DNA of 64,000 nucleotides from Candidatus Omnitrophota bacterium (GTDB taxonomy: Bacteria; Omnitrophota; Omnitrophia; Omnitrophales; Aquincolibacteriaceae): the NCBI GenBank assembly GCA_030698625.1, contig JAUYMS010000048.1, positions 21,879-85,878 on the forward strand, in the 5' to 3' direction. The position numbers and the translations under genes are program-made. The notes below the pieces were generated by a model. It saw nothing but the letters and a program-made list of their open reading frames with translations, was not told where the DNA came from and did not search any database. Below, one piece after another: positions 19,401 through 48,119 of this stretch (position 1 is the first letter of the stretch; each line of letters opens with the position of its first letter).

Positions 19401-22400
19401 CAGATGAACATGCATGTCGTCGGAGCCGGAGACTATGTCGATCGCGGACCGTGGCCGGATCTGGGATACGAACTCAATAAGTTCTTCCGCGCTAACGGAA
19501 AACTTAAGTTCATCAACGGAAATCACGAGGTCTGGAAAGACTGGAATATTACCGGTGTGCACCTTCGAGTGCACGATGCGTTTCGTACCATCCTGGCCAG
19601 TGAAAAATTGGCAGAAAACCATATTAGCGAACACCTCAAAATCATAAGGCCGTTTGTCACCACCGTGGGGTGGGATGCTGTAAGGGATCAGGAGAAATTC
19701 ATAGAGCTGGAACGGCAATTAGCAGATCTGATGGCACGCTTCTTGGCAGAGGCAAAGAAAAACGGAGGTGTCCTGGATAATGAAACGATCGAAAGGTATG
19801 CCAATGTGGTGATTGATGCGGGAACTAACATGACGCATTCGCGTGAATATTGGTCACGGGAGTGGGGCGTTCACGGCAACTGGTTCGATACCCTGCTTGA
19901 TCGTTTGAATGCCCGCATGATCAACGAGGGCCGTGCGGCGGCCAATGACAGCATTAATGACAGCCTTCGCGATCGCTTGGCCGCGATTCTAGAGCCCGCA
20001 CCATTCGGAGAGTTGGATGCTGAGATTCGCGAGGGCCTCGAGGACGTTCGGGAACAGCTGTTGACCAATATCCGAAGCGGAGAGGGTCTCTTTACCCCGG
20101 TGGATTCTCTGATGTTTTCAGATACCGACGAAGTCCGCGCCCTTCTTCGTCGAATGAAAGAGCTCAAACGTGCCAACGAAGAAAAGCGCTTGCTGGGGCT
20201 CAGCCACGAACAAGTCAAGGTGCCGAGCCCCTTTGAGGAGACGGCAAAAGTGGCTCGGAGGTATCTGGATGAGACAAATAGGATTATCGGGTTCTTAAAT
20301 CGGGCCGTGAAAGAAGCAGAGATTCCGAGCTTTGAGGCAGAGCTGATCACGATGGAAAATATGCGCCATAACCCCGTGGTCCTCGAAACGGTGCAATGGG
20401 ATCTGGAGAATTTCAGGCAATTCTATGTTCACTCCCTCGGCATGGCGGTATCGCACGGCATCATCCCCTTTAAAGAGGGAACCACCGAGCTTAATGTCAG
20501 CTATAAGACCCGGGGCGGGCGCACCTTCGTAGGAGTTGCTGCGATCGATGCCATGCAAGTTGACATACGCCGGTTCTTTCAAAATATCGATAAGATCGAG
20601 GACACGGCTGAGTTCCGGCAGGAAATGGAAGACGCCCTCGGTCCCGCCTATGATATTTTGCAAGACTGGTACTCCGACCGACTCGGCATCCTCAAGGCGC
20701 CGGCGGTCTTACACTTTGCAGACATCGGCGGACCCACCAAATTTTACTTTTCCGACCCCACGGCTTACAGCCCCAGGAGATTTCAACCGAATGCGGGTTT
20801 TTTAATGTTTGGCCACGTCCCGATGTCAGAAATGAAAAAACGTGACCTTCCTTATCTCAACATGTCAACCCGATGGGAGTTGAGCGGATTCGTCAACGGA
20901 GATGACGGTATGTCCGAGGGGTATGACGGCCGCGGCTCGGTCGTTTTGATTTTCGACCGCGACGAGAATGGAGTGCTCGAGGGTTTCAGGCGATATGGTT
21001 TCAAGCGAACCTCTTTCTACATTATCAATAAGCTCGTGCCGCCGGAAGAGAAACTCCTCGCGGCGGCTGTGGCGGCCCTCAAAATAGCAAACGGAGAGAC
21101 CGAGGCGCCGGCCGATCAGGTTCGCGCCCGTGAACTGCAAGCGGAGATTGAAGAAAGGACGGAACGCATACGGGAATGGAAGGAAAGGGCCGAGCGTTTG
21201 GACCGAGACGGAGAAGAGATCGAAGATATTACGCTTTATAAGATTCCTCAAAAAACGGCGGACAGAATTCGCCCTTTCTTAAGCGGCGAGGGCCTGCTCA
21301 TGCATATGGTGGAGCAGAAACTGGAAGAGACCCGGAGAATTTATGGAGAGCTCTTAGAAACCGCTACTCAGTTCGGACGTGTTTGGAAGAAAGCCCATTA
21401 TAGGAAGAAGCTCAAAGCAACAAGCCGACAGCTTGCGAACTTTCGTATCACGACCGTCAAGAAGCTCCTCGATCGCGCCTCCAAGGCCTCCGGCCGGCTG
21501 CATTCGCAGGAAGTGCGGAGGCGCATCGACAAAGCGCTGTGGTACGCAAGGACTTGGCGCTATGCTCAATCCGAGAAGGCCGTTACCGCAGTTCTCAATA
21601 TCGTTCAGGGCCCGGAATTTGAATTGGGACCCAGCTCACAGCTTTTTGAGGATCTTGAGCGCGCGTATCTTATCCTCAGCAGGCATACCATGTCAGAGCC
21701 GGTTCTACTCCAACGCTCCGAGCTGCGGTCTGACCCTGCTGTTACAAGCACTGGTGAATCTGATGCTGAAGCTTTCAATGTCTATACCCCCGACAAAATT
21801 GTGCGCGGTATGGAGGAGGAGATCGGTGAGAAGCCGGTGCTCCTTGCCACCTTCTCAAAATACTTGAGGGCCATTGTGTCCCAGAGGACGGAAGGGGGCC
21901 GTACTGTGGCGATGCCTCCATTTTTCGTGATACCCGCCCATCTTTCCGAACGCATGCTGAGCAGCGGTCAGCCCTTCGACGAAATCACCAGAAGAAAGTT
22001 ATTGGAGAATCTCTTCGAGTTTAGCGAAAGAGGAACAGAAGCATTCGGTAAACCCGAATCACCGCTATTTCTTTCGATACGTGCAGCTGCACCGCGAATC
22101 GTGCCCGGCCAGTTTATTACTATCCTGAATGTCGGCATTAATGACGACACCTTTCCGGGTCTGGTTCAGCGCTTGGGAAGCCTTGAATTAGCCCAGAGCC
22201 GTTACTCGAAACTGATTCGCGACATTCTAATCGAAATCTATAATTATGAACGTGACGACATTAAGGAAAGTATGGATGAACTCCCGATCGAAAATTATGC
22301 GACAAAGGAGGAGTGGCGTTTAGCCGCACTGCGGAAGGCCTATCGAGATTTGCGCCAGGAAGAATTTCCGCAGGACGTTTACGAACAAGTGCGAATTATT

Positions 22401-25400
22401 ATGGATGGTATTTACAACCGCACACGATACACGTCAGCCGCTGCCGGAGCGCAGTTCCGAGGCGGTATTATGTTGCAACGCATGGTTTTCGGTATCGGAG
22501 AGAATTCTTACTCGGGCGAAATCGCCAGTCGGACATCAGAAGGGGACCGAATCATCCGGGGTAATATGGAGGCAGGCGTCCAAGGGGATGAAACAACGGG
22601 TGTCGTTCGGGTCGGTCAGGAATTCTTTCAGAGGTACCCGGAATTTACGAAAGCTATCGACGGTATTTTGACGGACGGTGAAAATTTTCTGCGCACCGCT
22701 GTTCAAATGGAGATTACCATCGAGAATAGCAAGGTCTATTTATTACAGCTGAAAGCGGCGGAGCGAACCAGTGATGCCGCGGCCGCCGTCATCATGGATT
22801 TGCTGGATCGAGGCGTCATTAATAGTGAGACGGCCTATGATATGGCTCAGAATGTCGACACGGATGCGCTGCGATTTGAAGAGGCGCTCGCGGGGACCGA
22901 TGCCCTGGTGAAGCTTGGCGGGGGTATTCACGTCTCACCGGGTGTTGCCGTTGGGCATCCGGTCATGACGAACGTAGGCGTGAATGAGAGCCGCCAGGGA
23001 GGAGTCCCCTACATCTTGGTAAAGCCCGAGATTCGTGCCCATGATCAGGAAGCCATTCAGGGTGCGAATGGCGATAAGGGTGCCGCGGCTATTGTGGCCC
23101 TCAATCAGATCGGAAATCATGCCGAGACCTTGGCGCTTATAGCGAAGATCCCCGCCGTGTTATCCGTACCCTTCGAGGAGATCGATTTACCACAGGGTAC
23201 ATTTTCGCTGCGTGGATCTGACGGTCAAGTGCATAGACTTCAGGAAACCAACCCGAATGACTTTATCTCGATTGATTCAGACGGCGCCATCTATTTAGGT
23301 AAGGCTGAAATTGTAAAGAGCCGCCGCAGCCTAAGTAAGCGTTCCGGTGATTTCCTTGCATGGAAAATGAAACTTGAGGGCAAGACGCCTGCCTTTGCCG
23401 TCAAAAGAGTGCCTTTCGGCTATGAAAGCTGGAGCACACCCTTCATCGAAGATGTGGTCAGTGAAAATGATTACTACCGCACGGTTCGTGACGGAGTGCG
23501 AGGCGATAAGAAGGTCTTTTTAATCGAACTTATTGATGTGGTCGAAGCCGAAGCAAAGCCGGATAAACAGAAAACAGAAAAGAAGGAACCTGAATATCGC
23601 ACTATTCCTGATTCGGTTATTATCGCGGCCGCTCAAGACGTGTTGGCTCGTGCCGACAGCATCGAGCAGTTCACTTTCTGGCTTTGGCGGCACTACGGTA
23701 AAATGGATCTTAATGCCTATCAGTTCGAAGAAAAAACGGAGAAGGGAAAAGAGATATTCTACGTGCCCTCTCACATTAAATACACAAACGAATCCGCCGC
23801 TCAAATTGCCTACATGCTGCGCGTCCTCAAGGGAAATCCTGAAAGGCTCGCGCAATCCATGTTTCATATGGTTGAGCGCCACAAGCCATGGAGCTATACC
23901 TTTAGGCGGGGGATCATTCCGCGCCTGTCGAGAGAGGATGCGTCCAAGTTCCTGGCTCTGGCGATGAACGAAGCTGTGAAACACGGGCAGAACCACATTG
24001 ATTTTATGATGCCCAGGCTCTTCGCGGAGCTTATCGAGAGTAACACCGAATTTGCGCTTGCCGTAATGCAAAAGGAATTTGGTCCCTTACAGCGCGGTTG
24101 GATGATGAATGGACTTTACGAGTTGTATGAACATCGTCGACTGCGGGAACGGACTATGGACTTTGATCTCCCTGCGGCGGAAAAATTAAAAGCGTTTCTG
24201 CTCGATAGTGTCGTGGATGCGGGAATCGAGTATCAGGTGGCGGAGAGGCATGAACACGGACCTCACGCCAGACGAGAAGTGACATGGACACATGACCCAC
24301 GCCTGCAGGACGAGATCGTTGCGTGGATTCGTACCCGAGAGAGGTCGGAATTGCGCGAGGCAGGGACCGCGATGCGGTCCGAGCTGCGCACCGGACCCGA
24401 TTCCGAGTATGTATCGAATGTCGTGTCGATATCGACAGCTGAGAATCTGTTGGATATCACGCCGGGCAGCATCAGTCAGCGATTTCCGGAATCAGACTAT
24501 GAGGCCCAAATCGATTGGAACCCCGGACTCATTCAATCAGACCGTGGTCTATCGCGGCTCACGATCATTCCGAAGACTGAAGGCAAAGCCAACCTTACCT
24601 ACGTCGTGAAGAGGGCCAACCCCATCAGGCGGGAGCTGGCGGCGCATTTCCAAGGTGAGGGCGATGTAGCCCAAGTTGCGTCTGATAGCGGGTTCGGCCC
24701 CGCCCTATTGCATCAAGAAGGCAACGTCATCATCGAAGAAAAATATCCGCCGGGGCATCACATCGCAGCTCGCGGTTTACTTCTTTCGCCCGTCGAATCA
24801 GCCGCCTTTGGCAGAAAGCTCGCCGGCGCACTTCACAGTATGATCACTCGGGGTCAGCTCGTTTACTACGGCGAAACACCTCAAACTCACATCATGATTC
24901 TGCCCACGAACAAAGACGGCCCCCGTATCCGCTTTTTGGACTGGAGCCATTCGCTTCCATTGCAGAATGACGCCGACCACAAAAATAAATTAGAGGCATT
25001 AAAACAATATGCCTACGTTATCAAAACCTTCTTGGCAAAACCGAGTAATAACATTTATGCATGGCGTAGTTTTGAAGCGACTTTCTTGAGTTTGGCGGAT
25101 ACGCTTGACATCGACTATTACGATGACCTTATCCACCAGGTTCGCAGCTACTATGCAAACAAGGAGACGAATCCGGATAAGGCATCTCGGGAATTATGGG
25201 GTGACTTTTTTTCGTATGCTGACGCGGCTCCGGACCTGGGCAGCGTTCGGACGACTATTGACCAGTCTGTGCCTGCAGAACGAGCTCCCGGAAAATTCGT
25301 TCAGAACCTACTGACATCGGTCAACATTGATTCGCAAGCCTTGCGCTCCGTCAAACTGATCTTGGAGCATGAGGAATATCTTGACGCGGAAATTGCGGAA

Positions 25401-28400
25401 GCCGTCGCGATGGACCTATTTGAGCGCGGCTACCTGGGGAGTAATGTGAATCGTTCCGGCGATGAAATTGCCAACGCTGCGGAAAGCTACCTTGCAAGTC
25501 AGGGCGTGGCCGCAGATGCCATAACGGCCATGCAGGAATCAATACGCCAGGAATTTTCCGAGAAGAACACGGGAATGGACAGAAGGTTTTTTTTAGGTGC
25601 GATTCAACGATTGGCCAAGCAACACAAGCTTTTCGAATCAATGAATCGGCGCGCGTACCGTCAGCTCGCAGAAGGTTTCTTCTCCTATCTGGTCGCTATT
25701 GAAGCAAGGCGAATCACCTTCAAAACCTCGATCTTACCCAACCTGCGAAATCGCGACGAGGGCGAGACATTGGAAGTTTACCTTGAGGGGAATCCCGATA
25801 CCCCCATCAAGGAATATGCGATTAAAGGGCGGCACAAAAACGGGGGCGGTGAACCTGCCCGTTCAACCCGTGCTTCAGAGATGAATTTGGGTCCGCACGT
25901 TGTCTTTGCGCGCAACGAGGAAAGGGTTCGGGAAAACGGGGGCATGCGGAGAATACCGCTCCGCATCGTAGAAGATTTATTGCCTCGCGAGCGGAACATT
26001 CGTCGTATCAGCCCCGGGACATTCACAGAAAATCCACAATACATGGGGATCCTGGTAGATAACGTGGCGACGAAGATTTACCGCATGGTTGATCCGAAGC
26101 GAGGCGACAGGACCATATTGCACCGTTTTGATAATGCCCCGGACCATATGTATATTTTGGACGCTGAACACGGTTTTGATTTCCTGATGATCGACTGGGG
26201 CTTTTCCAACTCGCTTATTCTCCCGACTTATGGCAACGATGCCGCCAAACATCTGGAAAGCATTTTCTCCGTCCTCTTGAGCGAGTTTAATAAGTTCGGG
26301 CCCGACTTTTGGAGCCGGTTCAGAGAGACCCTCTTGCAAATAGCGCGGATCAACGGAGGGCTGCTCGAGGCAGAAATCGAACAAGCGTTTGATAAGGTGC
26401 CCTACCAACCGTCTCGGCAGCGTTCCGAATTGCGCGAGGCAGGGACCGCGATGCGGTCCGAGCTGCGTATGCCGGATGAAGAAATTGCCGATCGGATACT
26501 GGATAAGATTTCACCCGAACGTCGGGGCAAGCGGAGCGTCACAAAGGCGCGTGTCCAAGAGCTGCAAGATGCCGTTGAAGCGGTGCGAACCATGTTGACG
26601 GTAGAAAATACCAAGAATGAACCCCCGGACAGCGACGTCTTTAAGAGCGAAATCTTTAATGCGATAGTCGACAGCAACTTAGTCCACGATTACCGGTTTA
26701 CAACCGGCCGGAACGCACCCAACTTTGCCGCAATGTTTCTTATCGACACGCAAAAACTTTTCACGATGAACGGAGATTACTTCGATGAAGCCTTTCCGGG
26801 AGAGGAAAAACCCCGCTATCTGGCAGTGATGGTAGGCCGGGATGCGGTGGTCGCAACAGCCATTCAAAGCGATCTCAATACGGATGATTTCAAATTTTGG
26901 GTGGACGGCGATTGGAAACATAAACTGTCCTCTGATTTTGACCTCGAGCAGTTTCTGCTTTCAAAAGGGGGCGTGCGCTGGTGGCAGATCGGAGAGTCGG
27001 GACCCTTGCGCGATGTTACTTATGACCAGAAAATAGCAGGAATACAAAAGATAACGAAAGACAAGCGGTTGGAGGCGAAGCATTTTCTCCTTGAACTTTT
27101 CAACCTTGCCCGAGCCATGTCGAACAAGAATCCGCCGGCGAATGTCTTTTTTGAGGGCGGGAAGACGGTTATTTTGGCAAGACAAAAGACGGACTTCGGG
27201 AAGTATCACAATCAGGATGAGATCCTCGCGCGGGCCCGGGAATTGGCTCTGGGCGCGGAGGTCCCAGTTGACGAATCATTTTCAACGGAGGATTTCAACG
27301 GTTGGTTTTCAGATGATGCGCGATCGCTAGAAAAGGACAGCCCCGTTTCAAAGCGCCACCGGATCGCGCAGCAGGTATTCAAAGAGCAAGTCGTTCGTGA
27401 CTGGGTCAAATCCGCGATCACAACAGGTGTGCTCGGGAAACGGTACCTTGCGGGACCGGACATGGCGACCGCGGATGTCATGAAGCTCGTTCAGGACACG
27501 GCTGATGAAGTCCATAACGATCTCGATTTATACCCCGCGCGCGTGACTACCAGTATCAAGGGGGAAGATGCGACCTTCGACCACATCAAATGGCGGACCA
27601 CGAGCATTAGTGTCGTGGCAACACTGCTTTCTTTTATTGATAACGAAGAGTTGATGAAGCGCGCCGGTTATGATCCAACTGATCCGGAACTAAAAATCGA
27701 TATCGTCATTCAAGGTTTTGGTGATGTGGGAACCGGGATCATTAATTACCTCTATGAGTCGCATAAGAACCGCTTGGACGGTTATGGGGGACCCATCCGC
27801 ATTGTGGGTGTTTCGGATGCCGACGGCGGGATCTACAACCATGGAGGTCTCGACATGGAGGAATTAAGGCGCCTGGCCAAGATCCGCGTGGGCGATGATG
27901 AAACTGAGGGAAGGCTTGTCGGCTTGTGGGATGAGTATTTGGGAGGGGAAGAGGCCCGCAAAGAGCCGGAGGCCAAGAAGGAGGCAAAGACACAGCGCGT
28001 TGACCACGGTAATGACATTTTCTATGTGCGTAATAAACATGAAGGGCGCATACGTGAAAGGCCGCTGATCGGAATCCCCGCCGCGGTGCCCGACGTTTTT
28101 CGCAGTGCCCAGGATATTCAGAAATTAAAGGACGATAGTGTCGTTGGGCTTATTTCGCCGGCGAACAATGTGCTCAAAGAGAACGCGGGCTTGGAGGCCG
28201 TACTGCAGGATCTCGGTATCTTCCTCTATGACGGCCCGCATGCGGGATTGGGCGGGATCTATTCGTCTTCGGCCGAGATATACGCCATCATGACGAGGGG
28301 CCTAGAAGCCGTTCGCAGAACTATGAGAGGTAACGACGATGTCTATGAAACGGATTATTATAAAATCCGTACACAGAGTGCCGTTAGAAACACTTCGCTT

Positions 28401-31400
28401 TCGATCAGCCGTTGGCTCAATCATCAGTACCTTTCAGCGATTAAAGCAGGTAGGCCCACCCATTTTTCTGAGATCCAGCGCAAGCTGGCAAAGAGCATTC
28501 GCCAAGCGAAAGGAAATTTCCTTAAAGACCCGAATCTGCGAGCAGGCCTGCTCAAACGCATTGAACGTACCATCGACAAGGTGCTGCCGAGATTGGAAAC
28601 GACTCATGAGGGCAGGGAACTCACAGAGCAACAAAAGAGGCAGCAGCGAGATCTCGTTAAACTTATTATCATTTTAAAGCACGTCGTCGATAGTGCTGTG
28701 GAAACCGTTGTTTATGGCCACGATCCCGACCATATTCAAACTCTCGTAAAAAGACTTGAAACGAACGACCGCAGTACAAGGCGAGCACGAGTAGCCCAAC
28801 AGATCGCGGCTTATGACCTCGCCGTGATGCGCGCTGCGGGTACGGCGTCGACAATGATTGCAGTCTTGCTCGATACAGACAATCGTGACGCCTTGACCCG
28901 GTCCAATGCGGCCTGGGCGCTCGGGATGCTGCGTTCGAAAGACGGTATTCCTCATCTGAAAACGGCACTAAAGGACAAAAGCGTTTATGTCCGTGTCGCC
29001 GCCAGAAGAGGCCTTGATCAATTTTCTCCGGCCGAGCTCGCAGAGACTGAGCGCTCAGAACTTCGCAGTGCGGATACTGTCGGAGAAACAGCAGAACGCG
29101 CGCCGCCTAAGGGGATAAGAATTGCGCTCGAAAAGGGTTGGGTGATCGCCAACCACATCTTTATGTCTGTCCACGCCGCGTTCTTGTTCCCCTATTATAT
29201 TGACCGGTTTGTGGAACGCGTTCTCGTTCCCCAAGGTCTGATTCCTAAAGACCATCTCGTGTTGCTCCCCGAAAGTCTCATCTTAGAATTGATCACGGGC
29301 TTCATCTTGGCGTTTGCGACCGGGTGGATTGCAATTTGGTGGCATGAGCGCGGGCATTACTGGGAGGCCGTGCGCCAAATCACGCTTCGTAAGGATCTTC
29401 TCAAGGAAGCCGGCCGCCGGCTTAAAAAGGGCGGACTCACGCGGCTTTTCTCGGAAGTAAAGATGGCCTTTCTTGCCCCTCTCGGCAAATTCCCCGGCAT
29501 CAAACGCATCGGCCTGACCTTTATGCCGGAATCTCCTTATAACCTTGACGTCGCGGCAGCGGGACCCGCAGCGAGCGGTTCCCTGGCGCGGGTGTTATTG
29601 GCTCTAGGCATCGTGTTTATCGTCATCGGTCTTTTCGGGCATATGGCCATCCCGGCCATTATCGGCCGCGTGTTTCTCGGAGTTGGAACCGTGGCTTTTC
29701 TCGACCGCCTCTTTGCCGATCCGGGTAAACTGCGCGAACTTCGCGTGCGCGAGCGACTCGCAAAAGAGGCCAGTAAGACAGTCGCAGAGAAGATGAGCGG
29801 CGGTGAAAAATGGAGTGATCAGATGGCGGATGTAAGGAATAAATTGCGGCATCAGCGTCAGGAAGTCGTCGGATGGCTCAAGGCGCCTTGGGGTTGGCGT
29901 AACTCTGCGATGGGCGGCGTTCATACCGAGAAAGAATATCCCGAGAGTAATATCAGTATGCAGGAAGGCATGTTTATTCCCATTTCACCTAGGAATGCAG
30001 AAGACGCCCAGGAAATGACGGTGGCTCTGCAGGAGCGCTTAAAGCAGATTATTGACGGTACGGAAGGTTCCCGTGTCATGGGAATCGGTTTAGAGGGAGG
30101 CCTCGCAGCCTACATCACGCCCGCAGAGGGAGACTGGGTGCCGGAACAACGCCTTTACCGAATGATGAAGCAGGCGATCATGGACCTTGGCTATATTCCG
30201 GGTAAGGACGTGGCTCTCGCCCTCGACCCCGCAGCGAGCGAGTTAGAAAATATGTATCGTGAAGAATTTCCCGATGCCGTCGGGATGTACCGTTTTTGGC
30301 GGGCCGATAACCCCATCGACGTGCCGCGCGATTCTGAGGACCCCAACCAGCCTTCTATGATGGGGATTTATCGTAAGATGATCGCCGAAGGCATTCCCAT
30401 TATCTCCATTGAAGACGGTTTCAGTGAGCGTGACTTTGAAGGGTGGCGGCTGCTGATGAAAGAATTTGGCGACAAAATGTTTGTCGTCGCCGACGATTTG
30501 GCCACTACGAATGACATGACGGTTGAAAAGGTTGCGAAAATGGGACTCGCCAATACCCTGCTTGTTAAAGCGAATCAAATCGGCACTCTTTCAGAAACTG
30601 TCTCGGCGATGCTTGTCGCCTTAGGTTATGGCATGGACCTTATCGTCTCGCATCGATCCAAGAAACCCAATGACACCATGGAAGCCCATATCGCAATTGC
30701 GGTGTCCTCAGTCGGTCTGAAAAGCGGCGGCGGCTCCAACACCGAGCGTCTGATTGTCTATCACGAGATTGTGAAAATCTTGCGGCGCATGTCTAAAGTT
30801 CAGACGGCTTCTCCGGATCAGATTCCGGAAGACGAAAGAGCCCGGCTTGACGCGATCGAACAGGCTTTCATTAATGAACTGACGATTCGCGACATCCTGG
30901 CCTTCGAAGAGCCGACGAATGCGGGCGTGCCGACGGTCGGTGTGGAGGTCGACGTTGGTATCCCCGGCGGCAGACTACGCATTCCGTTTACGGCATCGAC
31001 ACCTCTGGGAACATCATCCGGTACGGGTGAGGCCATCCATCTAGTCGATAATGCTATTCCTGGCGGAACTTTGATCCACCGCTACAAGGATCTCTTTGAG
31101 CAAACCGAAACGGTCGGGATCTACCATTTTAAAAAGCGAATCACACGAAAGGAGATCGATGCCCTTGGCGATAGTGACCTGACAAAGCTTTGGGTCAAGG
31201 CAAATCGGTTCAAGGGTAAGGGTGTTTTAAATGCGGCCGAACATGCCGAGCACATCCTTGGAAAAGATTTTCTGGATATGAAACTTGTCGAAATTGAGAG
31301 TCTAGTCGAGATTGACCAGCGTCTCCTCAGAGTCGAGTTTGATCGTGCCGGCAGCCGCGATCAGGACACTTCCGACCCTGTTGCCATCGCTCAGCGCAAG

Positions 31401-34400
31401 GCCAATTTGGGAATGAATGCGATTCTCTCTATTTCGCTGGCCATTGCACGTGTTAAAGCGTGGTCGGAGGGTAAGGAACTTTATCATATCATTCGCGAGC
31501 AGATGGAAGAGACCATGGCGAAGGTGATTGCAGCACAGGCGGATGGTGAGTCGGCTGGTCAGTGGGCGACCGTGCTTGAAGAGAATAGTTTCGATGAATT
31601 GGTGATGGCGTTTCAGGAAGCTTCGGGCAGAATCGCACAGAGTGAAACGCCTCTCTATGAAGTCGTTCGTCAACACCTGCCGGTTTATGACATCAACGGC
31701 GGCCCAAGCACCGTCAATGCCGACCGGTCCGAGCTGCGTCAGACACAGTATGAGCCTAAATCCGTTGAGGTTTTTGCCGAAGGCCTTGAGATGGGAGAGG
31801 CTGCTGCTGAACGTATCATCGAGGTGGCGGCGAAATACCACAACGAGGGCGGGGCCGTCATCCAAATTCCCACAGGATCTACACCGGTGCCGATGTACTG
31901 GCACCTCATCAAGCGCTTCGAAGAAGACCGCTCAATCGATTTGTCGCGCGTCAAATTTTTTAATCTCGATGAATATGTCGGCCTTGAGGCCAACCACCCG
32001 CTCAGCTACCAGTTTTTTATGCAGGAAGTACTCTACAAGCATCTTGATGCTATCGATAAGCAGCAGCGATTACAGCGTGCGCCGAAACCCGAAAACCGCA
32101 ATGTGCCCTCGATCGATTTTTTGGAAACGCATACCGGATACCGCCGCGAGCAGGGTGCGGACGCGGCTGCGGCCATCTATGAAGCTCGCCTTGCCGAGGC
32201 GGTGAAGGCGACGGGGCGCAACATATCGGACCTTACGATTCTGGGCGCCGGCGGCGCCTACCCCTTAGACGGACCCAACGGCTTCCTTAAGACCGACGAC
32301 GGCCGGTTTATCCTGGCCGGCGGGCATATCGGCTTTAATGAGCCGGGTTCCAAGCTGACCGACCGTACGCGTGTCATCAACCTGACGGCCAAGACCAAGA
32401 AGGACACGGGCTTTCGCTTCGGTAATATCCTCAAACGCGGCGATTATCGCGGCCAGTGGGCGGCCAAGGTGCCGGACCAGGCGATTACATTGGGTGTTGC
32501 CAATATTTTGCAGAGCGCCGAGATTCTTCTCCTCGCTAACGGCGAAGAGAAGTCGATCGTCATGAAAGAGGCCTATGAAAACGAGCCCAATCCGGATTTT
32601 CCCGTAACCTTCCTAAAATATCATAAGAATGTTCACTGGCTGCTTGACCGCGATGCCGCCAACAAGCTGCCGCATGTGCTGACACCCTGGACGGAGTATG
32701 AGGATTACGAGTGGACTCAGACAGGCATACGTCAGGCTGTCATCGAGGCACTACGCCGCAATCCCGGCATTACCATCGAACAACTGCGGCGCAGTCATCT
32801 CAACGCTATCGGCGTGACAAACCCGACTCTTGCCCGCTTCGGCGGCATTACGCAGATCAAAGAAGATCTCCGGACCTTTCTGCAGCCGCACTTTTCAACC
32901 GGCAGCAAGGCTCTGTTACCGCGCCGCCAGAACATTGTCATTTTCTCGCCCCATCCTGATGACGATGCGATTACCTCAGCGGCGACGATCCGCAAGCTGG
33001 TGGAGCGAGGCAACAATGTCACCATCGTTTATCAGACCGGAGGAGAAAATGCAGTTCGCAAGGAAGGTAAAACGATACAGATCCACGCGAAACTGGTCCG
33101 CGATTTCATTGCCCGCAAGGGCAAGGATCCGTCCGGCGTCGAAGACCTCGAGCTTCAGCGCATAGCACGTATCCTCACACGCAAAGAGGAGGCCGACAAC
33201 GCCGTTGCTGCCGCAGTTCGCGGCGCACGTTCGCGGGGAGGAGAACTCGGCACCGTGAAAACATTATTTATGGACCTGCCTTACTATTATGCGCGCGGTT
33301 TCGTTGACCAGGCCGCAGTGAGTGAGCAGAAGGATGTGATGCCCACCGTCGACGTATTGAATCAGCTGAATCCGGACCACATCTTTATTTCGGCCGAGCA
33401 GGACCCGCACGGGGCGCATGGCCTCGGCGTCAAAGCCATTCAGCGGGCGCTTCTGCACAACCGGTCCCGAGTGTCGCGGCATGTCAAGATCTGGGGTTAC
33501 CGGGGCGCTTATGAAGAGTGGCCGCTCGAAAACCCGGAAGGCCTCGTCATTGTTCCCTTCGATGAAGCGGCCATGGAAATAAAAATTGATTCAATCCTTG
33601 AGCATGTCTCCCAGCTGAAGCCTCTTTTCCCGAGTTTTGATCCGCGTGAGTTCTGGGAAAGGGCCCGTGACCGCAACGGAGCGACGGGCCGATTGCTGCA
33701 ACAGCTGGGTTTGGTTCCGCCTGACGGCAATTTCTATGCCGAGGTTTTTCGCATAATGACGTTTGAAGAGTTCACCGGGGCACGCTCGGAGCTGCGGGTA
33801 TCCGTCAAAGAAGTCTTGGTCGGGCTTGCGCTCGTGGGTGTGCTCGCGACCGGGTCGCACGGCGCACTACCGGCGAATCAGACGCCCACGCTTGCCCGTG
33901 CCACGCTTACGGACAGAAGCACGCTACCTTACGGGGTTATTTCGGATCACCCGGTGGTTGTCCTGACCGCCGATTCTTTTACGGTTCAAAAATCCGGGAG
34001 AAACCACTACCTGGTGCCTTCAGGAAGCGGTCTCAAGATTCAAGTCACTGCCGGCAGTGTCGAGGTTCGTGACGGTCTCGTGATTCAGGTCAGCGAAGGG
34101 GACCGGCACTTGGCGGCGTTCAATCTCAAAGGGGAGGTCAAAAAAGCCGTTGCGGCCTCGAATGAACGCAAACAAGGTGAGCGCGATTTGACCGACCTGC
34201 GGCAATTGGCGGTCAATTTAGGGACGGCTCTGAATCGCTCCTTTTCGAGAATAGACAGTGTTTCCCATGATTTTGAGATAATGCAGGCATTGAAGGCGTA
34301 TCGAGATCGTGTCGCAAAAGGTATTGATCTCGAGACGGATAAGGAGGCGCAGGAAGCTGTCGCCGAGATCGTCGCGGCTTATTTGGCGCGCATCGAGGCG

Positions 34401-37400
34401 GAACAACAGATTCAGCGCGGCATTGCGGATGCCGCCGAGCAATTGCTGCAAAGCAAGGACGTTTACGTCAAGGGCGCCGCGGCGAGTCTGCTGCTTGAAG
34501 TCTACGTGGCGGGCCGCATCGAGAATCTCAAGCAGTTTGATCGTAAAGCGCATCGGTTCGTTTCGCTCGGCGATCCCGCCGAAAAATACCGCAAGCAACT
34601 GGAAACGGCCCTGGCAATCGACGCGAAGGCCCTCGACATTGCGGTGACTGCGTTGGAGCAGGCGATCAAGGCATTAAAAGATGAGATCGCGAAGCTTCAA
34701 CCTCTCGTAAAGGCGGCAGACGATGAGCTAAAAGCGCTTGAAGTTGCCAGATCAACCGCCGAGAAAGCTATGGGAGATGCGAGGCAAAAAATCACGGCGG
34801 AACAGTATAAGCTTCGCCCCAAATACCTGTCGCGGTCAGGGGCCGCCGTCGGTTTGATCGCCCGTCTTGCCGAGGCGGAAAAAGATCTGACGACGAAGGA
34901 GAAGCGTGACGCGGCGATAAAAATCAGGGAAGAAATCGCTGTCGTCGAAGCGGCCATCCGTCAGCTCGATAAGGCGGTGGGTGCGGAGCAGACTAAGTGG
35001 TCCGCCGCGGACAAGGCGGTTCCCACGGCCCGCGGCAAAGCGATGCGGGTGAGTGGGCAGCTTACGCTGCGTCAGAAACCACTCAAGGCATTGGAAGATG
35101 CGCTCGGTCCGATTCGAGTCGCGCAAGAGGCCGCGGCAGCATCGCGCTCTGAATTGAGAATATTAGAAAGAGTAAAAGAAAGAACTCGGAAGATTGTCAG
35201 CGGAATCAAGTCCTACTCCGCTGCGTTCACGTATTACACGCAGGGAATAAGGCGCCGTCTCGACTTTGCCCGGGAGGTCGCATGGGCTGTTCTCAAGACC
35301 CGCCCCGCGATATTTATCGTTGCAGTGAGTCTTTACCTAGGTCTCTTTATGTGGGGCCGAGAGGCATTGCATGAACGTTATGTTCGGCCCAAGGTTGAAG
35401 TGGTCCGTTTTGATGAGCAGGGCCCGAATATCAGCCGCATCAGAATCGTCGACAACTCGATGAACCAAGCCCTGACTGCAACCGAGGAACGCCCCGAGCT
35501 CCCGTTTGCCGTCGTCCGCGCCCTTCGGACCATGGGGGCGACCGATGCGATAAGGCTTTCGCAGGTCAAGCAGATCGGCGCCACCGACTATCGCGAGCTT
35601 GACGACGGTAATCATGCCGTCACCATTAGTGCCGAGGCCCACGATCCCAATATGGTGCATCCGCCTCTGCATGATGTGACGGTTGTGTTGGAAGGCCCGG
35701 ACGAAGTCCCCAATGCCCAAGACGTGACGAATGTCCAGACGATGCTGATGGGCGAGCCGATTAAAGGCAAACTCGATTTGCAAAAGCACTTTGCCGACCT
35801 CTTCTATTTTGTGGTGGCAGGATTCGTCCCCATTCTCATTTACGTATTCGTAAGAAACGTCAAAATTGTTGCCGCAATGCCTTCAAGCATAAGAAAGAAG
35901 ACGAGGCGGAGGGTCAAGCCGAAAGAAGGCGCCGAGGATAAGCCTGCCGGCGAGGGCCAGCGACGCGACGCCGATGACCGCAAGCCCGGGGATCGCCCGG
36001 ACCGAGGCCGGCGCGACCGCTCGGAACTGCGTGAGGATGAGGGGAAAATTGTAATTGAAATTGATTTTCCGGCGAACCGCAATATCGATGACTTTCTCCT
36101 GGAGCGATTGCCTGCGATGTTACGGCAGAAGGGGCTTTATGAAACCGATGCTCTGGAGTTTGCAAGTGGTACGCTTGAGGTCGATGGGCAGACGCGCACG
36201 ATCGGTGTCAACAATATTAGCGTTCGGTACGACAAACCGGGGAAGGTTAAGCTTGTCTATAATGCGGAGCTTGCCGAAGAGCTTCGCCCCCTCAGTAACT
36301 TGAAGTATGAGGCATCCGATGCGGTAAGTGCCGCGGTTAAAAAACTTCTGTACTCTTCATATCGGCGATCGATGTTTGTTGCGGATCAAAAGTTGAACCC
36401 GTATCTCGACGTGGGTTCGGTGATTTATTTTAAGGACCCGGTCCCGGGCCTTCCGCCGGTCGTGGCCTTTGTCGGTGCAGGGAAGCAGGACGTCACTGTG
36501 GGCGAGGAGAAAGAGACGCGAAGCACAATTATCGTGAAATCTCTCTTTGCTGACGGCAAGCAATACGCGATTCCCGTCAGTAGTCTTGGCAAAGTCAGAG
36601 GCTTGGTCGATCGCATCCAAAACGATGAAGTGGAAATGGTGATTCCGAAGTCACGGATTGAGGCTGCGGTCGGACGCTATTTTATTCCAACCATTACGAA
36701 TGAGATGGCTAATCTGATTGAGAGATCGCATGCGACTTTCAAAGATCTGGCTGAGAACGTGCGTGTCAGGTTGCGTCTTTCTCCGCAAGGACAGATGCAC
36801 TTTCACCTGAGTGCTTTCGAAGAGGATTTTGATGCGCTGGCCGAGGATGGCTTTGTCCTGAGCGGTGACACCATTGCAAGCGCTGACCTCTATCTCGACA
36901 AGACGCGGCCGTCCCTGCGCGATCTCTATAAAGTGCTCACTTGGGATCTTCCCGCGAAGGCAAACAAACGGGAGGAGCGACTGCAGGAAATCAACGACGG
37001 CGCAGGATTCGGCGCTATCATTAGTGGTCTCGTCGAGTATCAAGACTCAGAAAATATGCTGTATCTTATTAGCCCGCCTGAGTTCGAAAAAGGCAAGCTG
37101 AAGCTTGGCGAGGATGCGCGCCAGATTGTTTGGACGGCCGGTTCCGAAGATGGGCTGCTTTTCGACGAATCTTTCGTTAAAGACGGCAAGCTTTCTCTGA
37201 AGTGGAATGCCCTCGACGGACAGGCGTGGTTTGTTGCCGTCATGCGGCCTACCCTTGATGTGAGTGACCGGAAACTGGTGATTCGCTTTGATCCGAAGAA
37301 GTTGGCGGAGCTCCCCGAGACGATTCATTTAGAACTCAAGAATCCGTCCGGGACCTCCATTCAACACGTTGAGTTGACCAAGGAAAGTCTTCAAGCGGCA

Positions 37401-40400
37401 AGGGGTGTTGCCAATGTCGCCCTTTATGCGGACTTCGGTTTCTTGGCTGAAGTGGCAGTAACCGTCAATCGCGAAGGGGCCGCCCTTGAAAAGGGCAGTG
37501 TCGTGATCGAGAGTATGTACACGCTGGAGCGTACGGACAAAGACCCGCCGGCAGGTAAGGCACCGTTTACGGTTGAGGAGACGACAACAAAGGGTCTGCA
37601 TGTTCGCTGGGAGGCGGCCGGTTTCTTTGACATGAAGGCAGCAAAAAAGCCTCCGCTCGATCTCCATCCCGATCTTTTAGCGAATTCCCGTTTGGGTAAG
37701 ACCTACAATGACTACCGAGTACTCGGCATAACGGGCGTAGATAAAAACGAATGGGCCCTTTCCGATGTGAAACAATTGAAGATCACCCTGAGCGGCGACA
37801 AGATTCCACAAGGGTTTTATCTTGTGGTTGCCAATACAGACCAGCCGGACGGGGTCGAATATAAGGGCCTTATCCGCCTCGCGATGCCCCAATCGATCGT
37901 GGGACAGAAGCTGGCCAAACCGACGACGCTTACCGTCGATTTTACCGCAAAGGGCCCGAAGCTCTTCCGGGACATTACGCCCGCGCGGGCGAATGCGCCG
38001 ATCGAAGCGCGCACGGTTGAGAACTTCGGTAAAGTGGGATGGGTGGCACTTCTTTTTAAGCCGGGGGACTTCGCCAAAGACCTGAAGCCCGAGGAGCACG
38101 TCGCCGACTTCAATGTTCACAGCATCGAAGTCGTGCGTTCGGAGCTGCGTAATTTAGAGAGGTTAAAGACAGAGGCAAAGGCCCTGCTCGAGCGCGCCAA
38201 GCCCTTCTACAACGAAAAGCTTGACGCAGCTATTGCCGAAATAGAGGCTGAGAATTTTACGCGTGCGAGCGACATTGTTGTTGAGGTCATTGGAATTGCA
38301 ATCGATAGGCATAACATGAAGCCCACGAGTGCCTTTGTGACGAGTCTGTGGAAGGTCCACTCCACACTCGAGCAAGCGGCGGATCTCAAGCGTTCGGAAC
38401 TACGGGTTGAATTAGCGGCGGATGAGGTGGCGACGGCCAACGGGTTGATCCGCCATCTTTCACCCAAGACGCCTCAGGCGGAGATTCCTAAGGATCACGT
38501 GCTTGTTGTGCTCGGTAATCCGCATGCGGATTATCCGGACTATGTGGCTGAGTTAGCGGAATATCTCGGCCCCACTAAGATTGTGATTGTCGGTAAAGGT
38601 GTCCGTGACGGCGAGGTCCCGGAGTGGAGAAGGATTCGCGACCGCATCGTAGACCTCAAGCCGGCGCTCGCCTCTAAGATCCTCGTGGATGAAAACGACG
38701 CCTCGATGCATACGGGTATGAATGTCACAACCGTTGCGAAGATCCTAAAAGACAACGGCATTACGAATCCTAATCTTGTGCTAACCCAAATTCCGACCGG
38801 TGTCCTGCTCTCGCGGCGTATCTTTGAAAAGCAGTGGGCCGAAAATGCGGCCCGAGCGGGCCTGAACCTGACCCCGAACTTTTTGACCTATGCGGTGGAC
38901 CGGAATTTCCGTCTCGCCGCTAACAAACCGTTAAGCAAACGTGCAGTATTCGCGGTGGAACATGCCCTGGGCCAAGTCGAACGTCTGCGCGACTGGCCGG
39001 CAAATGAAAACCCGCCTCTTGATGCGGTTGAAGGTGATGTCACGCCTGAAATTCTCAGTGCTTACGGCAGTCTGCAACGTGCACTCAAGCGCTCGGAGCT
39101 GCGTGATCTGGAACCCACGCGCGTTCTCGTCGCCGATGAACCGCAGGGCGGCGACATTGAGCCGCTGCGTGAAGTCGTGAATTTTTTTGCGGGAGACGCG
39201 GTTCTCATCGAAGGTGAAATCGAGGGCACCAGCAAGGTAGGTATCGGTGCTGATCACGATAAACTCAGAAAAGTTATTGAACAAGATAAGCCGGACGTCA
39301 TCCTGATTCGCTCCGGCGTTAAGAAAATCTTCAAGGACCCGGATTTCTTAGAATTCGCCGCGGCTAATGGCGTGCGCGCTATCATCCGCATGGGTGCGGG
39401 TATCGATAACGTTGATGATGTGATGGCCGCGGAACTCGGCATCGCTGTGATTCGTACGCATGGCAATGCAAACTCCGTGGCAAACGGGTTTTTGCGTCAG
39501 TTGCTTGCCGGTCTTGAGGCTGAAGACGGGCGGCTTGGCGAAAGCAGTGGGCCGGATCTGAGCGCCTCAGACCTCGGAGACATTTTTGACATTGATATTG
39601 ATGAGCTCGTCGCGGCAGAGGCCGAGGCCTCGAAGAATGCCGCCCGCGGTAAGACGCATCCGGATCAGGCAGGAAAAGTCTTCCACTCCATCTCCGCTGT
39701 GCGGGCCCGCGAACTACTTCAGAAGTTGGAGGGCCGTACCATCGGCCTCATGGGATTTCGTGCCGTGGCCTGGGCCGTGGCCGAAAAACTTAACGAAATC
39801 CGTACTCGCTTGAATATTGATTTTAAGATTGTCGCAACCTCTCCGACCCTCGATGGCAAGAATAAGAAAAAGGCGGCCGAGACCGCGGTCTTGCGTGAGG
39901 TCGCCGCTAAGTTTGGGGTGGAATATCCGGGCGAGGACGCGGTTTTGGCCGAATCCGATATCCTCTCGCTTCATATGTCCGCGGGTGACGAGCCTTATTT
40001 CACTAAGGAAATCCTCGAGAAAACAAAGGCCACGATTTGGATCAACACGGCAAGACAGGCGCTCATTGATGAAGACGATCCCGCATCGCTTAAGGCATTG
40101 AACAAGGCTTTCTGGGACGAATTTGTGGCGCGAGGGAACTTTTATTTCTCAGATGTGGATGCTCACGCGGCCTTTGAAGCTTTGCTGGCCGAGCATACCG
40201 GTCATCTTTTCCGCTCGCCGCATATCCTCGCCAGCACGGTGAACGCAGGTGAAGGGGTTAAGGCGCTGACGCTGCCCACGCTGAAAACCACGATCGAGCT
40301 GATGCGCGGCCTTGAGCAATCGACGCCTGACTTTGTCCTGGAGAACCTGAACGGTATATCTCTCGCTCCCAAAACCCCCGAGGTGCGCGGTCCTTTTGAT

Positions 40401-47380: not shown

Positions 47381-48115
47381 ATGCCGCGTCGCAGCATCCT
47401 GGTCCTCGATTCTCCGGATACCCACTGGACTTCTCTTATTCAAGAATATTTTCAGGATACTTCTTCGCAGGTCGATTGCTTTGATGCAGCTGCCCCGGCG
47501 GGTCAGGCCCTGGATAAAACCGGTCACGATCTAGCCTTTATAAACCCCAAACTTCTCAATCTTGCCCTGACCCAAAAACTCCTTTCTGTACGACAGACCC
47601 GGCCGGATTTCCGTATCTTTGGTTTGGGTAAAGCCGCTCAAGCAAATAAAATTCCTTACAGCGCTCTCTTTGAAGAGGAGATCTCCTTGTTTGACTTTAG
47701 CAAGAAGGTGGTCGAGGCTGTGCCGCTTCCCGAGGCGATTCAGGTCGTGGTGGTTGACGATGAGGAGGCTATAGCCGCCATGGTTTGTGATTACTTGAAA
47801 GGGCGATCGAATCCGGTTTTTCAGGTGCGTTACGCAAAGAACGGTGAAGAGGGGATGCGGCACTTGACTGAAAAGCAGCCCGATGTGCTTATACTCGACA
47901 TCAAGATGCCCGTCAAAGACGGGCGTGAGGTGTATCGCGAAATTCAGGCGAAGAAATGGAATTTCCCGGTGGTCGTTTTCTTTGATGCGGTTTCAGCTCA
48001 CGAAATGCTTGAGATTCGAAAGGCCGGTAACCCCGTAGTCCTCGAAAAGGGTTCACGCGAAAGCACCATGCCTGAGATGATGGTCCTCATTAAAAAACTC
48101 GCCTTCTTCGGGTAA
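47381..48115 (+). CDS. Response regulator with tandem receiver domains (first degenerate), no output domain
   Basis: C-terminal half VVVVDDEEAIA...DVLILDIKMPVKDG...PVVVFF is a canonical REC with an acceptor Asp. N-terminal half ILVLDSPD...HDLAFINPKL is REC-like with Asp->Asn at the acceptor position. Starts 14 nt after the giant-ORF stop. Confidence 0.75.
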   Translation: MPRRSILVLDSPDTHWTSLIQEYFQDTSSQVDCFDAAAPAGQALDKTGHDLAFINPKLLNLALTQKLLSVRQTRPDFRIFGLGKAAQANKIPYSALFEEEISLFDFSKKVVEAVPLPEAIQVVVVDDEEAIAAMVCDYLKGRSNPVFQVRYAKNGEEGMRHLTEKQPDVLILDIKMPVKDGREVYREIQAKKWNFPVVVFFDAVSAHEMLEIRKAGNPVVLEKGSRESTMPEMMVLIKKLAFFG

Positions 48116-48119
48116 CCGC

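What the first reader, a model, noticed from the sequence alone, without database searches (positions are those of the whole stretch)
29100..29760. Embedded site-2-protease-like HExxH transmembrane block inside the mega-protein
A hydrophobic helix runs straight into HERGH (WIAIWWHERGHYW). About 70 aa later comes AAAGPAAS, then a further helix ending AFLDRL. This order (HExxH in a helix, AGPxxN, LDG) matches the M50 intramembrane metalloprotease family. A protease domain inside a protein punctuated by a recurrent motif suggests cis- or trans-autoprocessing. Alternatively it may simply anchor the chain in the membrane.
Basis: inference. Interest (0 to 1): 0.7.

Follow-up and report, generated by a model that had tools for sequence, protein, structure and literature searches.

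The report
Protease-like membrane domain fused to enolase
The HExxH membrane block is real and is a distant relative of site-2 (M50) intramembrane proteases, but it is the membrane half of a conserved "membrane domain + rearranged enolase" protein that also exists on its own in other bacteria, so it is probably not the enzyme that cuts this giant protein at its RSELR junctions.

Summary
Observation confirmed. In the 10,303-aa ORF (16455-47366, +) of a Candidatus Omnitrophota MAG, aa 4224-4446 form a four-helix membrane domain. It has HERGH at the cytoplasmic end of TM2, a beta-hairpin (PLGK), AAAGP opening TM3, and LD...ADPGK closing TM4.

These motifs are invariant in about 60 relatives. Pfam M50 is the top hit but sub-threshold (12.5 bits against 27.2). 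27 of 31 family members hit M50. hhalign against SpoIVFB gives P=2.4e-5 (score 41.7; shuffled controls at most 22.3). It aligns HExxH, PxGG and AGP in register, and ADPGK with LDGGK in a looser, low-confidence run. The NxxP motif is absent.

The block is never independent. It is always followed by a circularly permuted enolase that appears to keep its catalytic residues. That two-domain unit is a stand-alone gene in several phyla. Here it is one module bounded by two of 18 exact RSELR pentapeptides (0.025 expected).

Other giants carry the same module with different delimiters (ERGAV, DGG). So M50-like ancestry is supported, while a dedicated RSELR-processing role is not, though it is not excluded.

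Most likely it is a zinc-site membrane domain that tethers the enolase. It may be catalytically active; no substrate is known. The N-terminal module has a Tiki/TraB/ChaN fold and is a second protease-like candidate.

The parts
16455..47366 (+). Mega-ORF, 10,303 aa, about 17 modules separated by 18 exact RSELR pentapeptides
29052..31724 (+). Focal module (aa 4200-5090): M50-like membrane domain plus circularly permuted enolase. It is bounded by RSELR at 29052-29066 and 31725-31739
   Evidence: Stand-alone homologues start 15-40 aa before LEKGW and end shortly after LPVY, which is where the RSELR motifs sit here
29124..29792 (+). M50/S2P-like four-helix membrane domain (aa 4224-4446)
29139..29207 (+). 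TM1 (aa 4229-4251) with invariant polar residues N4233, H4234, S4238 and H4240 (GWVIANHxxxSxH). This is a family-specific feature not aligned to the SpoIVFB profile here
29277..29345 (+). TM2 (aa 4275-4297), running outside to inside
29343..29357 (+). HERGH (H4297, E4298, H4301): the HExxH zinc and catalytic motif at the cytoplasmic end of TM2
29475..29528 (+). APLGKFPGIKRIGLTFMP: predicted beta-hairpin with invariant P4342 and G4344. It aligns with the SpoIVFB 'LLPFGG' strand
29553..29639 (+). TM3 (aa 4367-4395), opening with AAAGPAAS (G4370, P4371, S4374). It aligns with the M50 'AGP' motif
29652..29714 (+). TM4 (aa 4400-4420), running outside to inside. It is glycine-rich (GRVFLGVGTV) where M50 has NxxP
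29700..29729 (+). LDRLFADPGK: two invariant Asp (D4417, D4422). ADPGK aligns with SpoIVFB LDGGK (zinc ligand D137) in the low-confidence extension of the profile alignment
29940..30794 (+). Enolase C-terminal TIM-barrel domain (aa 4496-4780), placed first. The sequence motifs that carry the catalytic residues are kept (GLEGG, ALDPAAS, IEDG, DDL, KANQIG, SHRS, LKSG)
   Evidence: The residue roles are from established knowledge of enolase
30915..31490 (+). Enolase N-terminal domain (aa 4821-5012), placed after the barrel (circular permutation). The PLGTSSGTGEA loop is kept
16572..18305 (+). Module 1 (aa 40-617): EreA/ChaN/TraB/Tiki-fold domain with invariant D87, H89, E117 and H501. It is a second protease-like candidate and recurs with the M50-enolase module in other genomes

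Best explanation
The block is the membrane half of a conserved two-domain protein that is uncharacterised in the libraries and papers searched here.

Anatomy. The N-terminal part is a four-helix integral-membrane domain descended from the site-2-protease (MEROPS M50) fold. The C-terminal part is a cytoplasmic, circularly permuted enolase that appears to keep its catalytic residues. TM2 ends in HExGH. A basic cytoplasmic insert follows, with a beta-hairpin (PxGK). TM3 opens with AAGP. TM4 ends in LD...ADPGK. The two His and an invariant Asp (D4422 or D4417) are predicted to sit at the cytoplasmic face. By analogy with known S2Ps (established knowledge), this would be the zinc site.

Place in the mega-protein. 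In this Omnitrophota genome the whole unit is one module of a concatenated mega-protein. Each module looks like a complete protein, and modules are separated by RSELR.

Inferred mechanism. The domain inserts N-in/C-in and holds the enolase-like enzyme against the inner membrane, next to its recurrent partners: a PPDK-like module, kinase-like modules and a Tiki/TraB-like module. It probably still binds metal and may hydrolyse a membrane-proximal substrate that is so far unknown. It is not a protease specialised for cutting RSELR junctions.

Shown versus inferred.
- Shown: homology, motif conservation, the obligatory fusion to enolase, and stand-alone occurrence.
- Inferred: topology (from hydropathy and charge), the metal site, and any catalytic activity.
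For: M50 ancestry:
- Pfam PF02163 is the top family for the block (E 0.07-0.09) and matches 27 of 31 relatives, best 1.7e-5. One relative carries PF02163 in precomputed annotation.
- hhalign of the family profile against 25 SpoIVFB sequences gives P=2.4e-5 and score 41.7. Reversed and 30 column-shuffled controls score 10.5-22.3.
- That alignment puts HExGH on HELGH, LIPxGK on LLPFGG and AAAGP on ILAGP in register. A looser run, with near-zero per-column confidence in that stretch, puts ADPGK on LDGGK.

Motif conservation and topology:
- HExGH, P/G, GP..S, D4417 and D4422 are kept throughout the core family.
- The AF2 model has pLDDT 80.6, with four long helices and a hairpin.
- There are 14 K+R in the TM2-TM3 loop and 9 after TM4, against 2 and 0 in the other loops.

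Obligatory fusion to enolase:
- Enolase_C then Enolase_N follow the block here and in homologues.
- The sequence motifs that carry the enolase catalytic residues are kept.

Stand-alone genes:
- P0039, P0055, P0059, P0070 and P0074 are single-module proteins.
- In L002 the gene is flanked by unrelated genes.
- Named relatives come from Dehalococcoidales, Sedimentisphaerales, Hydrogenedentes, Acidobacteriota and Cloacimonadota.

Co-fusion partners.
Against: - The window's own sequence is far below the Pfam gathering score (12.5 against 27.2 bits).
- The HMM-to-sequence search of PDB finds no M50 chain, and Foldseek finds nothing.
- The M50 NxxP motif before the Asp is not present.
- No coordinates were available, so the His/His/Asp geometry was not measured.
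- Distant branches of the family have lost HExxH yet keep the enolase fusion (P0081, P0153, P0167, P0168, P0171, P0176). So the fusion persists in lineages that have lost the HExxH motif.
- No substrate is known.
Confidence: 0.7

Rival explanations
1. Built-in polyprotein protease. The M50-like domain cuts the mega-protein at RSELR junctions in cis or trans and releases the modules.
For: - It is the only Pfam-recognisable protease-like domain in the 10,303 aa.
- Its catalytic-type residues are intact.
- The same module is present in three delimiter-punctuated giants: the window, P0050 (16 exact ERGAV plus 7 close variants, 23 in all) and P0051/P0052 (5 and 13 DGG).
- Some RSELR sites lie directly before membrane segments, for example aa 5777 followed by a TM at 5785-5805.
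Against: - The domain is 36-50% identical in stand-alone proteins that have no junctions to cut.
- Giants with unrelated delimiters (RSELR, ERGAV, DGG) share the same active-site motif set.
- It is invariably tied to the enolase, not to giant size.
- The family has only 145 clusters, whereas a 2026 preprint reports thousands of Omnitrophota proteins of 10,000 aa or more.
- S2P enzymes are known to cleave membrane helices (established knowledge). Most RSELR sites are hydrophilic and far from any TM.
Confidence: 0.1
2. Pseudoprotease or pure anchor. The domain keeps the S2P fold only to insert into the membrane and scaffold the enolase, with no catalysis.
For: - The NxxP helix-breaking motif is lost.
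- Distant family branches have lost HExxH and the Asp residues but keep the fusion.
- No PDZ or CBS substrate-gating domain typical of M50 is present.
Against: - HExGH, AGP and both Asp are invariant across about 60 core members from several phyla at about 40% overall identity. Mean column identity is 59% in the membrane domain.
- Extra invariant polar residues in TM1 (N, H, S, H) are hard to explain for a passive anchor.
Confidence: 0.17
3. Coincidental motifs in an unrelated helical membrane domain (not M50-derived).
For: - Sub-threshold Pfam score.
- No PDB sequence hits.
- Foldseek negative.
Against: - Several motifs align in the same order and register in the confident core of the profile-profile alignment (HExxH, the PxG strand, AGP). 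The score is about twice the best of 31 controls.
- The D-x-G-K match extends this, but only in the low-confidence part of a looser run.
- M50 is the single top family out of 24,736 for most members.
- The predicted topology matches the S2P core.
Confidence: 0.03

Closest known systems
SpoIVFB / MEROPS M50B site-2 proteases (Pfam PF02163)
   Same: - HExxH at the end of a TM helix.
- A following P-x-G-G/K beta-strand.
- AGP opening the next TM.
- D-x-G-K after the following TM.
- Compact core with no PDZ insertion.
- Profile-profile P=2.4e-5.
   Different: - No NxxP motif.
- A ~45-residue basic helical insert between HExxH and the hairpin.
- An extra N-terminal TM with invariant N/H/S/H.
- No CBS domain; a permuted enolase sits in its place.
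- Below the Pfam threshold.
MjS2P (PDB 3B4R) and E. coli RseP
   Different: The structural match is weak (rank 30). There are no PDZ domains. The substrate-gating elements are not recognisable.
Canonical enolase (TIGR01060 / PF00113 + PF03952)
   Same: Both domains are present, and the sequence motifs carrying the metal and acid/base residues are conserved.
   Different: - The domain order is reversed (barrel first, N-domain last).
- It scores 208.8 bits against the 300-bit equivalog cutoff.
- It is tethered to a membrane domain.
Omnitrophota giant 'multi-enzyme metabolic cluster' proteins (bioRxiv 10.64898/2026.06.07.730766; West-Roberts et al. 2023, bioRxiv 10.1101/2023.11.21.568195)
   Same: A protein of 10,000 aa or more, from Omnitrophota, tiled with many unrelated metabolic Pfam domains and several TM segments.
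   Different: Term searches of those papers find no delimiter motif, no M50-like domain and no permuted enolase. West-Roberts et al. state that cleavage points are unknown.
Viral polyproteins with embedded proteases (for example picornavirus 3C, flavivirus NS2B-NS3); recalled from general knowledge as an analogy only
   Same: Complete proteins are concatenated in one ORF, with a short recurrent site at every boundary and a protease-like domain inside.
   Different: - Cellular organism.
- No evidence of cleavage.
- The embedded protease-like domain is an intramembrane type that also exists outside any polyprotein context.

Membership tests
MEROPS M50 / Pfam PF02163 site-2 protease | HExxH located within or at the end of a transmembrane helix | tested here: met
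   HERGH (aa 4297-4301) ends TM2. It is helical in the AF2 model, and the hydropathy peak is 2.02. It is invariant in 30 of 30 homologues.
MEROPS M50 / Pfam PF02163 site-2 protease | Third zinc ligand: Asp of an LDG(G) motif at the end of a later TM helix | tested here: inconclusive
   Two invariant Asp are present (D4417, D4422). ADPGK aligns to SpoIVFB LDGGK only in the greedy extension of hhalign, where per-column confidence is near zero. The metal geometry could not be measured because no coordinates were available.
MEROPS M50 / Pfam PF02163 site-2 protease | NxxPxxxLDG: helix-destabilising Asn and Pro before the Asp | tested here: not met
   The corresponding stretch is GRVFLGVGTVAFLD. 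No Asn or Pro is conserved there, and it is glycine-rich instead.
MEROPS M50 / Pfam PF02163 site-2 protease | Conserved beta-strand (PxGG) after the HExxH helix, and an AGP motif opening the next TM | tested here: met
   LAPLGK and AAAGP align in register with SpoIVFB LLPFGG and ILAGP. A beta-hairpin is predicted at model residues 135-144. P4342, G4344 and P4371 are conserved throughout the core family, and position 4370 is G or A.
MEROPS M50 / Pfam PF02163 site-2 protease | Score above the Pfam gathering threshold | tested here: not met
   12.5-12.9 bits against 27.2, E 0.07-0.09, although it is the top-ranked family. 27 of 31 relatives match at E<=1, best 1.7e-5.
MEROPS M50 / Pfam PF02163 site-2 protease | Profile-profile similarity to bona fide members | tested here: met
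   hhalign against 25 SpoIVFB sequences gives Prob 75.5%, P 2.4e-5 and score 41.7. Controls score 10.5-22.3.
MEROPS M50 / Pfam PF02163 site-2 protease | Structural superposition on a solved S2P core | tested here: inconclusive
   [not shown]
MEROPS M50 / Pfam PF02163 site-2 protease | Zinc-dependent intramembrane peptidase activity | not testable with these tools
   Needs biochemistry.
Enolase (phosphopyruvate hydratase) | Barrel and N-terminal domains with the metal ligands and the Lys/Glu/His catalytic residues | tested here: met
   Enolase_C E 2e-46 and Enolase_N E 3e-11. GLEGG, ALDPAAS, IEDG, DDL, KANQIG, SHRS, LKSG and GTSSGTGEA align to PDB enolases. The catalytic roles of these residues are from established knowledge.
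Enolase (phosphopyruvate hydratase) | Canonical N-domain then barrel order, and the equivalog score | tested here: not met
   The order is reversed: query 15-300 matches enolase 155-413, and query 334-541 matches enolase 7-142. TIGR01060 scores 208.8 against a cutoff of 300.
Polyprotein with an embedded processing protease | Recurrent short motif exactly at the boundaries of complete protein units | tested here: met
   There are 18 RSELR against 0.025 expected. The focal module's boundaries coincide with the termini of stand-alone homologues. ERGAV flanks the same module in P0050.
Polyprotein with an embedded processing protease | Demonstrated cleavage at the motif by the embedded protease | not testable with these tools
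   No proteomic or biochemical data. Comparative data argue against this particular domain.

The most novel reading that the evidence does not exclude
The 31-kb ORF is a true bacterial polyprotein. About 17 complete proteins are released by cleavage at the exact pentapeptide RSELR. The embedded M50-like domain is the built-in processing enzyme, alone or together with the N-terminal Tiki/TraB-like module. Delimiter motifs (RSELR, ERGAV, DGG) co-evolve with it in different lineages.

A broader version, cleavage at the delimiters by any protease, I put at about 0.4.
Probability: 0.12. Interest if true: 0.9.

Novelty: new variant of a known kind. Interest (0 to 1): 0.55.

Why it matters
If the domain is an active S2P-type enzyme, this is an intramembrane-protease fold wired directly to a glycolytic enzyme. 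I found no description of that combination in the papers or family libraries searched, and enolase in a permuted form was likewise not found. It would point to membrane-localised, possibly proteolytically regulated, PEP metabolism in several poorly known phyla.

In the Omnitrophota context it gives one well-delimited example showing that the giant 'multi-enzyme' ORFs are concatenations of complete proteins separated by an exact, lineage-specific pentapeptide. The giant-gene papers say the cleavage points are unknown. These delimiters make the question 'are giant proteins processed?' directly testable, whichever protease is responsible.

Tried and rejected
Searches that found nothing for the block:
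- phmmer of the block against PDB sequences gave only a chance Bestrophin hit.
- The family HMM against PDB sequences gave nothing. With the longer alignment it gave only enolases.
- Foldseek against PDB gave nothing below E 0.37.
- NCBIfam on the block gave nothing meaningful.
- The afdb50 fold library was not available.

Other dead ends:
- A literature search for 'RSELR' returned only the varSelRF software.
- 'Circularly permuted enolase' gave no papers, and the 'bacterial polyprotein / giant protein / cleavage sites' search returned nothing relevant.
- A homologue search with aa 7150-7650, which spans three junctions, was meant to show whether relatives keep RSELR. It found no homologues at all.
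- Relaxed Pfam scans of the ten unannotated modules found no protease family.

Ideas considered and rejected:
- RSELR as a DNA- or RNA-level signal: the codons vary synonymously.
- The mega-ORF as an artefact: it is 30.9 kb without a stop, and its modules are homologous to real proteins elsewhere.
- 'AFLDRL' as the only LDG equivalent: ADPGK fits the motif better, on a low-confidence alignment.
Full report
**Context**

The window comes from a Candidatus Omnitrophota MAG. Flanking proteins match MDP3921451-63 exactly, on a 346,779-bp contig.

One ORF runs from 16455 to 47366 on the + strand and encodes 10,303 aa. It contains 18 exact RSELR pentapeptides, against 0.025 expected from composition. 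Their codons vary synonymously (CGN/AGG, TCN, GAA/GAG, CTN/TTG, CGN/AGA). So the motif is selected at the protein level, not as a nucleic-acid signal. RSELR occurs nowhere else in the six-frame translation of the 64 kb.

Cutting at RSELR gives modules of 85-1,051 aa. Many carry unrelated enzyme domains:
- Metallophos
- ELFV dehydrogenase plus HEAT
- enolase
- glucosamine-6-P isomerase plus PIG-L
- D-2-hydroxyacid dehydrogenase

**The observation**

The finding lies in the module aa 4200-5090 (nt 29052-31724).
- HERGH is aa 4297-4301 (nt 29343-29357) and directly follows the hydrophobic stretch LILELITGFILAFATGWIAIWW.
- AAAGPAAS is aa 4367-4374, 70 residues later.
- AFLDRL is aa 4414-4419.

HExxH occurs once in the whole protein (0.36 expected), so by itself it is not significant.

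**Is it M50-like?**

Direct searches are weak.
- Pfam Peptidase_M50 is the top family but scores only 12.5 bits (E 0.09; gathering score 27.2).
- NCBIfam and PDB sequence searches give nothing.

Homologues change the picture.
- 30 proteins at 36-50% identity were found, and all carry HE[MLIR]GH.
- The alignment shows these invariant residues: GWVIANH...S.H in TM1, HExGH, P..G, N-L-x-V-x-A-x-x-P-x-x-S, G-R, L-D and A-D-x-G.
- Scanned one by one, 27 of 31 members hit PF02163, best E 1.7e-5.
- An exhaustive profile search of 1.84 billion cluster representatives finds only 145 members (61 at E<=1e-30). It is a small, sharply defined family.

For a profile-profile test I used a SpoIVFB sequence recalled from memory purely as bait. 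It proved 97% identical to a database entry. I aligned 25 database SpoIVFB proteins and compared the two alignments with hhalign.
- Result: probability 75.5%, P=2.4e-5, score 41.7.
- Aligned in register: HExGH on HELGH, LIPxGK on LLPFGG, AAAGP on ILAGP.
- A reversed control and 30 column-shuffled controls scored 10.5-22.3.
- A greedier run extends the alignment so that ADPGK (D4422) falls on LDGGK (D137, the known SpoIVFB zinc ligand). Per-column confidence in that extension is near zero, so this pairing is a lead rather than a result.
- The M50 NxxP motif has no counterpart here.

Structure and topology:
- The AF2 model (31 sequences, pLDDT 80.6) has four long helices plus a beta-hairpin between TM2 and TM3.
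- Foldseek against PDB is negative.
- Charge counts put the TM2-TM3 insert (14 K+R) and the post-TM4 helix (9 K+R) in the cytoplasm, and the other loops (2 and 0 K+R) outside.
- So HExxH and the Asp residues lie at the cytoplasmic ends of TM2 and TM4, as in known S2Ps (established knowledge of that family).

I conclude that this is a remote but genuine M50-fold derivative. It is not a regular member, because it fails the Pfam threshold and lacks NxxP.

**What it belongs to**

In every sufficiently long family member the block is followed by enolase. In the window, Enolase_C (aa 4496-4780) precedes Enolase_N (aa 4821-5012).

The alignment to PDB enolases confirms a circular permutation. It also shows that the motifs carrying the catalytic residues are kept: GLEGG, ALDPAAS, IEDG, DDL, KANQIG, SHRS, LKSG and the GTSSGTGEA loop. 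The roles of those residues are from established knowledge of enolase. The module scores below the TIGR01060 equivalog cutoff (208.8 against 300).

Stand-alone versions exist.
- P0039, P0055, P0059, P0070 and P0074 are single-module proteins of 817-955 aa.
- In locus L002 the gene sits between unrelated genes. In L001 it is followed by a PPDK-like gene.
- Named sources span Dehalococcoidales, Sedimentisphaerales, Hydrogenedentes, Acidobacteriota and Cloacimonadota.

The stand-alone proteins begin 15-40 aa before LEKGW and end soon after LPVY. That is exactly where the two RSELR motifs flank the module here. So the mega-protein module is a complete protein.

**Relation to the RSELR punctuation**

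The same module occurs in other giants that have other delimiters.
- P0050 (6,041 aa) has 16 exact ERGAV, and 23 instances counting the close variants (EAGAV, ERGMV, ERGTV, ERGAT, ERGAI), against 0.03 expected. Two of them flank its M50-enolase module at equivalent positions.
- P0051 and P0052 have 5 and 13 DGG (about 0.7-0.8 expected). P0051 is from Omnitrophota.
- P0063 may use SESR (my reading of the sequence; only two instances).

Hence the M50-like domain is not correlated with any one delimiter, nor with having delimiters at all. This argues against it being the dedicated junction protease. Known S2P enzymes act on membrane helices, which points the same way. It remains the only Pfam-recognisable protease-like domain in the ORF, so the idea cannot be excluded.

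**A second candidate**

That these belong to one superfamily, and that it includes proteases, is established knowledge, not a result obtained here. D87, H89, E117 and H501 are invariant across the four aligned sequences.

This module recurs with the M50-enolase module. It is fused to it in P0058, P0063 and P0067. It is a separate 527-aa gene upstream of the ERGAV giant in L003. PPDK-like and kinase-like modules also recur in various orders. This suggests a functional set rather than a random concatenation.

**Mechanism proposed**

- Shown: remote M50 homology, conservation of the putative ligands, obligatory fusion to a permuted enolase, stand-alone occurrence, and delimiters at native termini.
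- Inferred: N-in/C-in topology, a zinc site at the cytoplasmic face, tethering of the enolase-like enzyme to the membrane beside its partner modules, and possible residual hydrolase activity on an unknown substrate.

Distant branches have lost HExxH but keep the fusion (P0081, P0153, P0167, P0168, P0171, P0176). So the fusion persists in lineages that have lost the motif, which suggests the scaffold role stands without catalysis.

**Literature**

Two preprints describe Omnitrophota giant proteins, including a 'multi-enzyme metabolic cluster' class. One states that cleavage points are unknown. Term searches of both find no delimiter motif, no M50 domain and no permuted enolase. No paper on a circularly permuted enolase was found.

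**Verdict**

- The M50-like ancestry is supported.
- The autoprocessing role is not supported, but it is testable.
- The block itself is a new variant of a known fold in an undescribed fusion, of moderate interest.
- The more striking feature is the exact, lineage-specific delimiter system around it.

Noticed in passing
window 16455-47366 (sites at 18561, 21714, 24342, 24375, 26421, 26454, 29052, 31725, 33783, 35145, 36018, 38136, 38391, 39090, 41193, 42990, 43914, 46464): There are 18 exact RSELR pentapeptides (0.025 expected) with synonymous codon variation. No degenerate variants exist, and nothing is conserved outside the five residues. They sit at the boundaries of what look like complete proteins.
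   Followed up: partly
window 24342-24389 and 26421-26468: A doubled delimiter RSELR-EAGTAM-RSELR occurs twice as a 48-nt direct repeat (44 of 48 nt identical). The two copies flank the 2-kb kinase-like module (aa 2641-3322). This looks like a cassette inserted or exchanged by recombination between junction sequences.
   Followed up: no
P0050 (locus L003 9605-27730); P0051, P0052; P0063: Other multi-module giants that carry the same M50-enolase module use different delimiters. P0050 has 16 exact ERGAV, 23 counting close variants. P0051 and P0052 have 5 and 13 DGG. P0063 possibly has 2 SESR. In L003 a GEAGAV also sits near the start of a second, contig-truncated ORF.
   Followed up: partly
[not shown]
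   Followed up: partly
window 29940-31490: The enolase is circularly permuted (barrel first, N-domain last), and the sequence motifs carrying its catalytic residues are kept. The permutation is shared by the whole family. No literature on it was found.
   Followed up: partly
window 33783-33870 (aa 5777-5805); also aa 6275-6295 and 6448-6466: A signal-anchor-like hydrophobic segment starts immediately after an RSELR, as if it were the N-terminus of an independent membrane or secreted protein. The N-terminal TM (aa 18-38) and the N-in topology of the M50-like block are hard to reconcile in one uncleaved chain.
   Followed up: no
window 37902-39401 (aa 7150-7650): This region spans three junctions and two small modules (85 and 233 aa). 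It has no detectable homologue among 5.8 billion proteins.
   Followed up: partly
window 47381-50470: Directly downstream of the mega-ORF lie a response regulator, a CehA/McbA (PHP) metallohydrolase and an alpha/beta-hydrolase with weak Peptidase_S15/S9 matches. The last is another conceivable processing enzyme.
   Followed up: no
P0069, P0073, P0084, P0103: Some family members carry two or three copies of the membrane block, with duplicated enolase-like parts. Some of these copies have degenerate HExxH (HMxGH, or lost altogether).
   Followed up: no
C-termini of P0048, P0081 and P0052: These share a C-terminal motif, GG(I/V)x...LDLQIKRDGxGxPLP...NIQGF, after the enolase module. It could be a sorting or anchoring signal. 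Its function is unknown.
   Followed up: no
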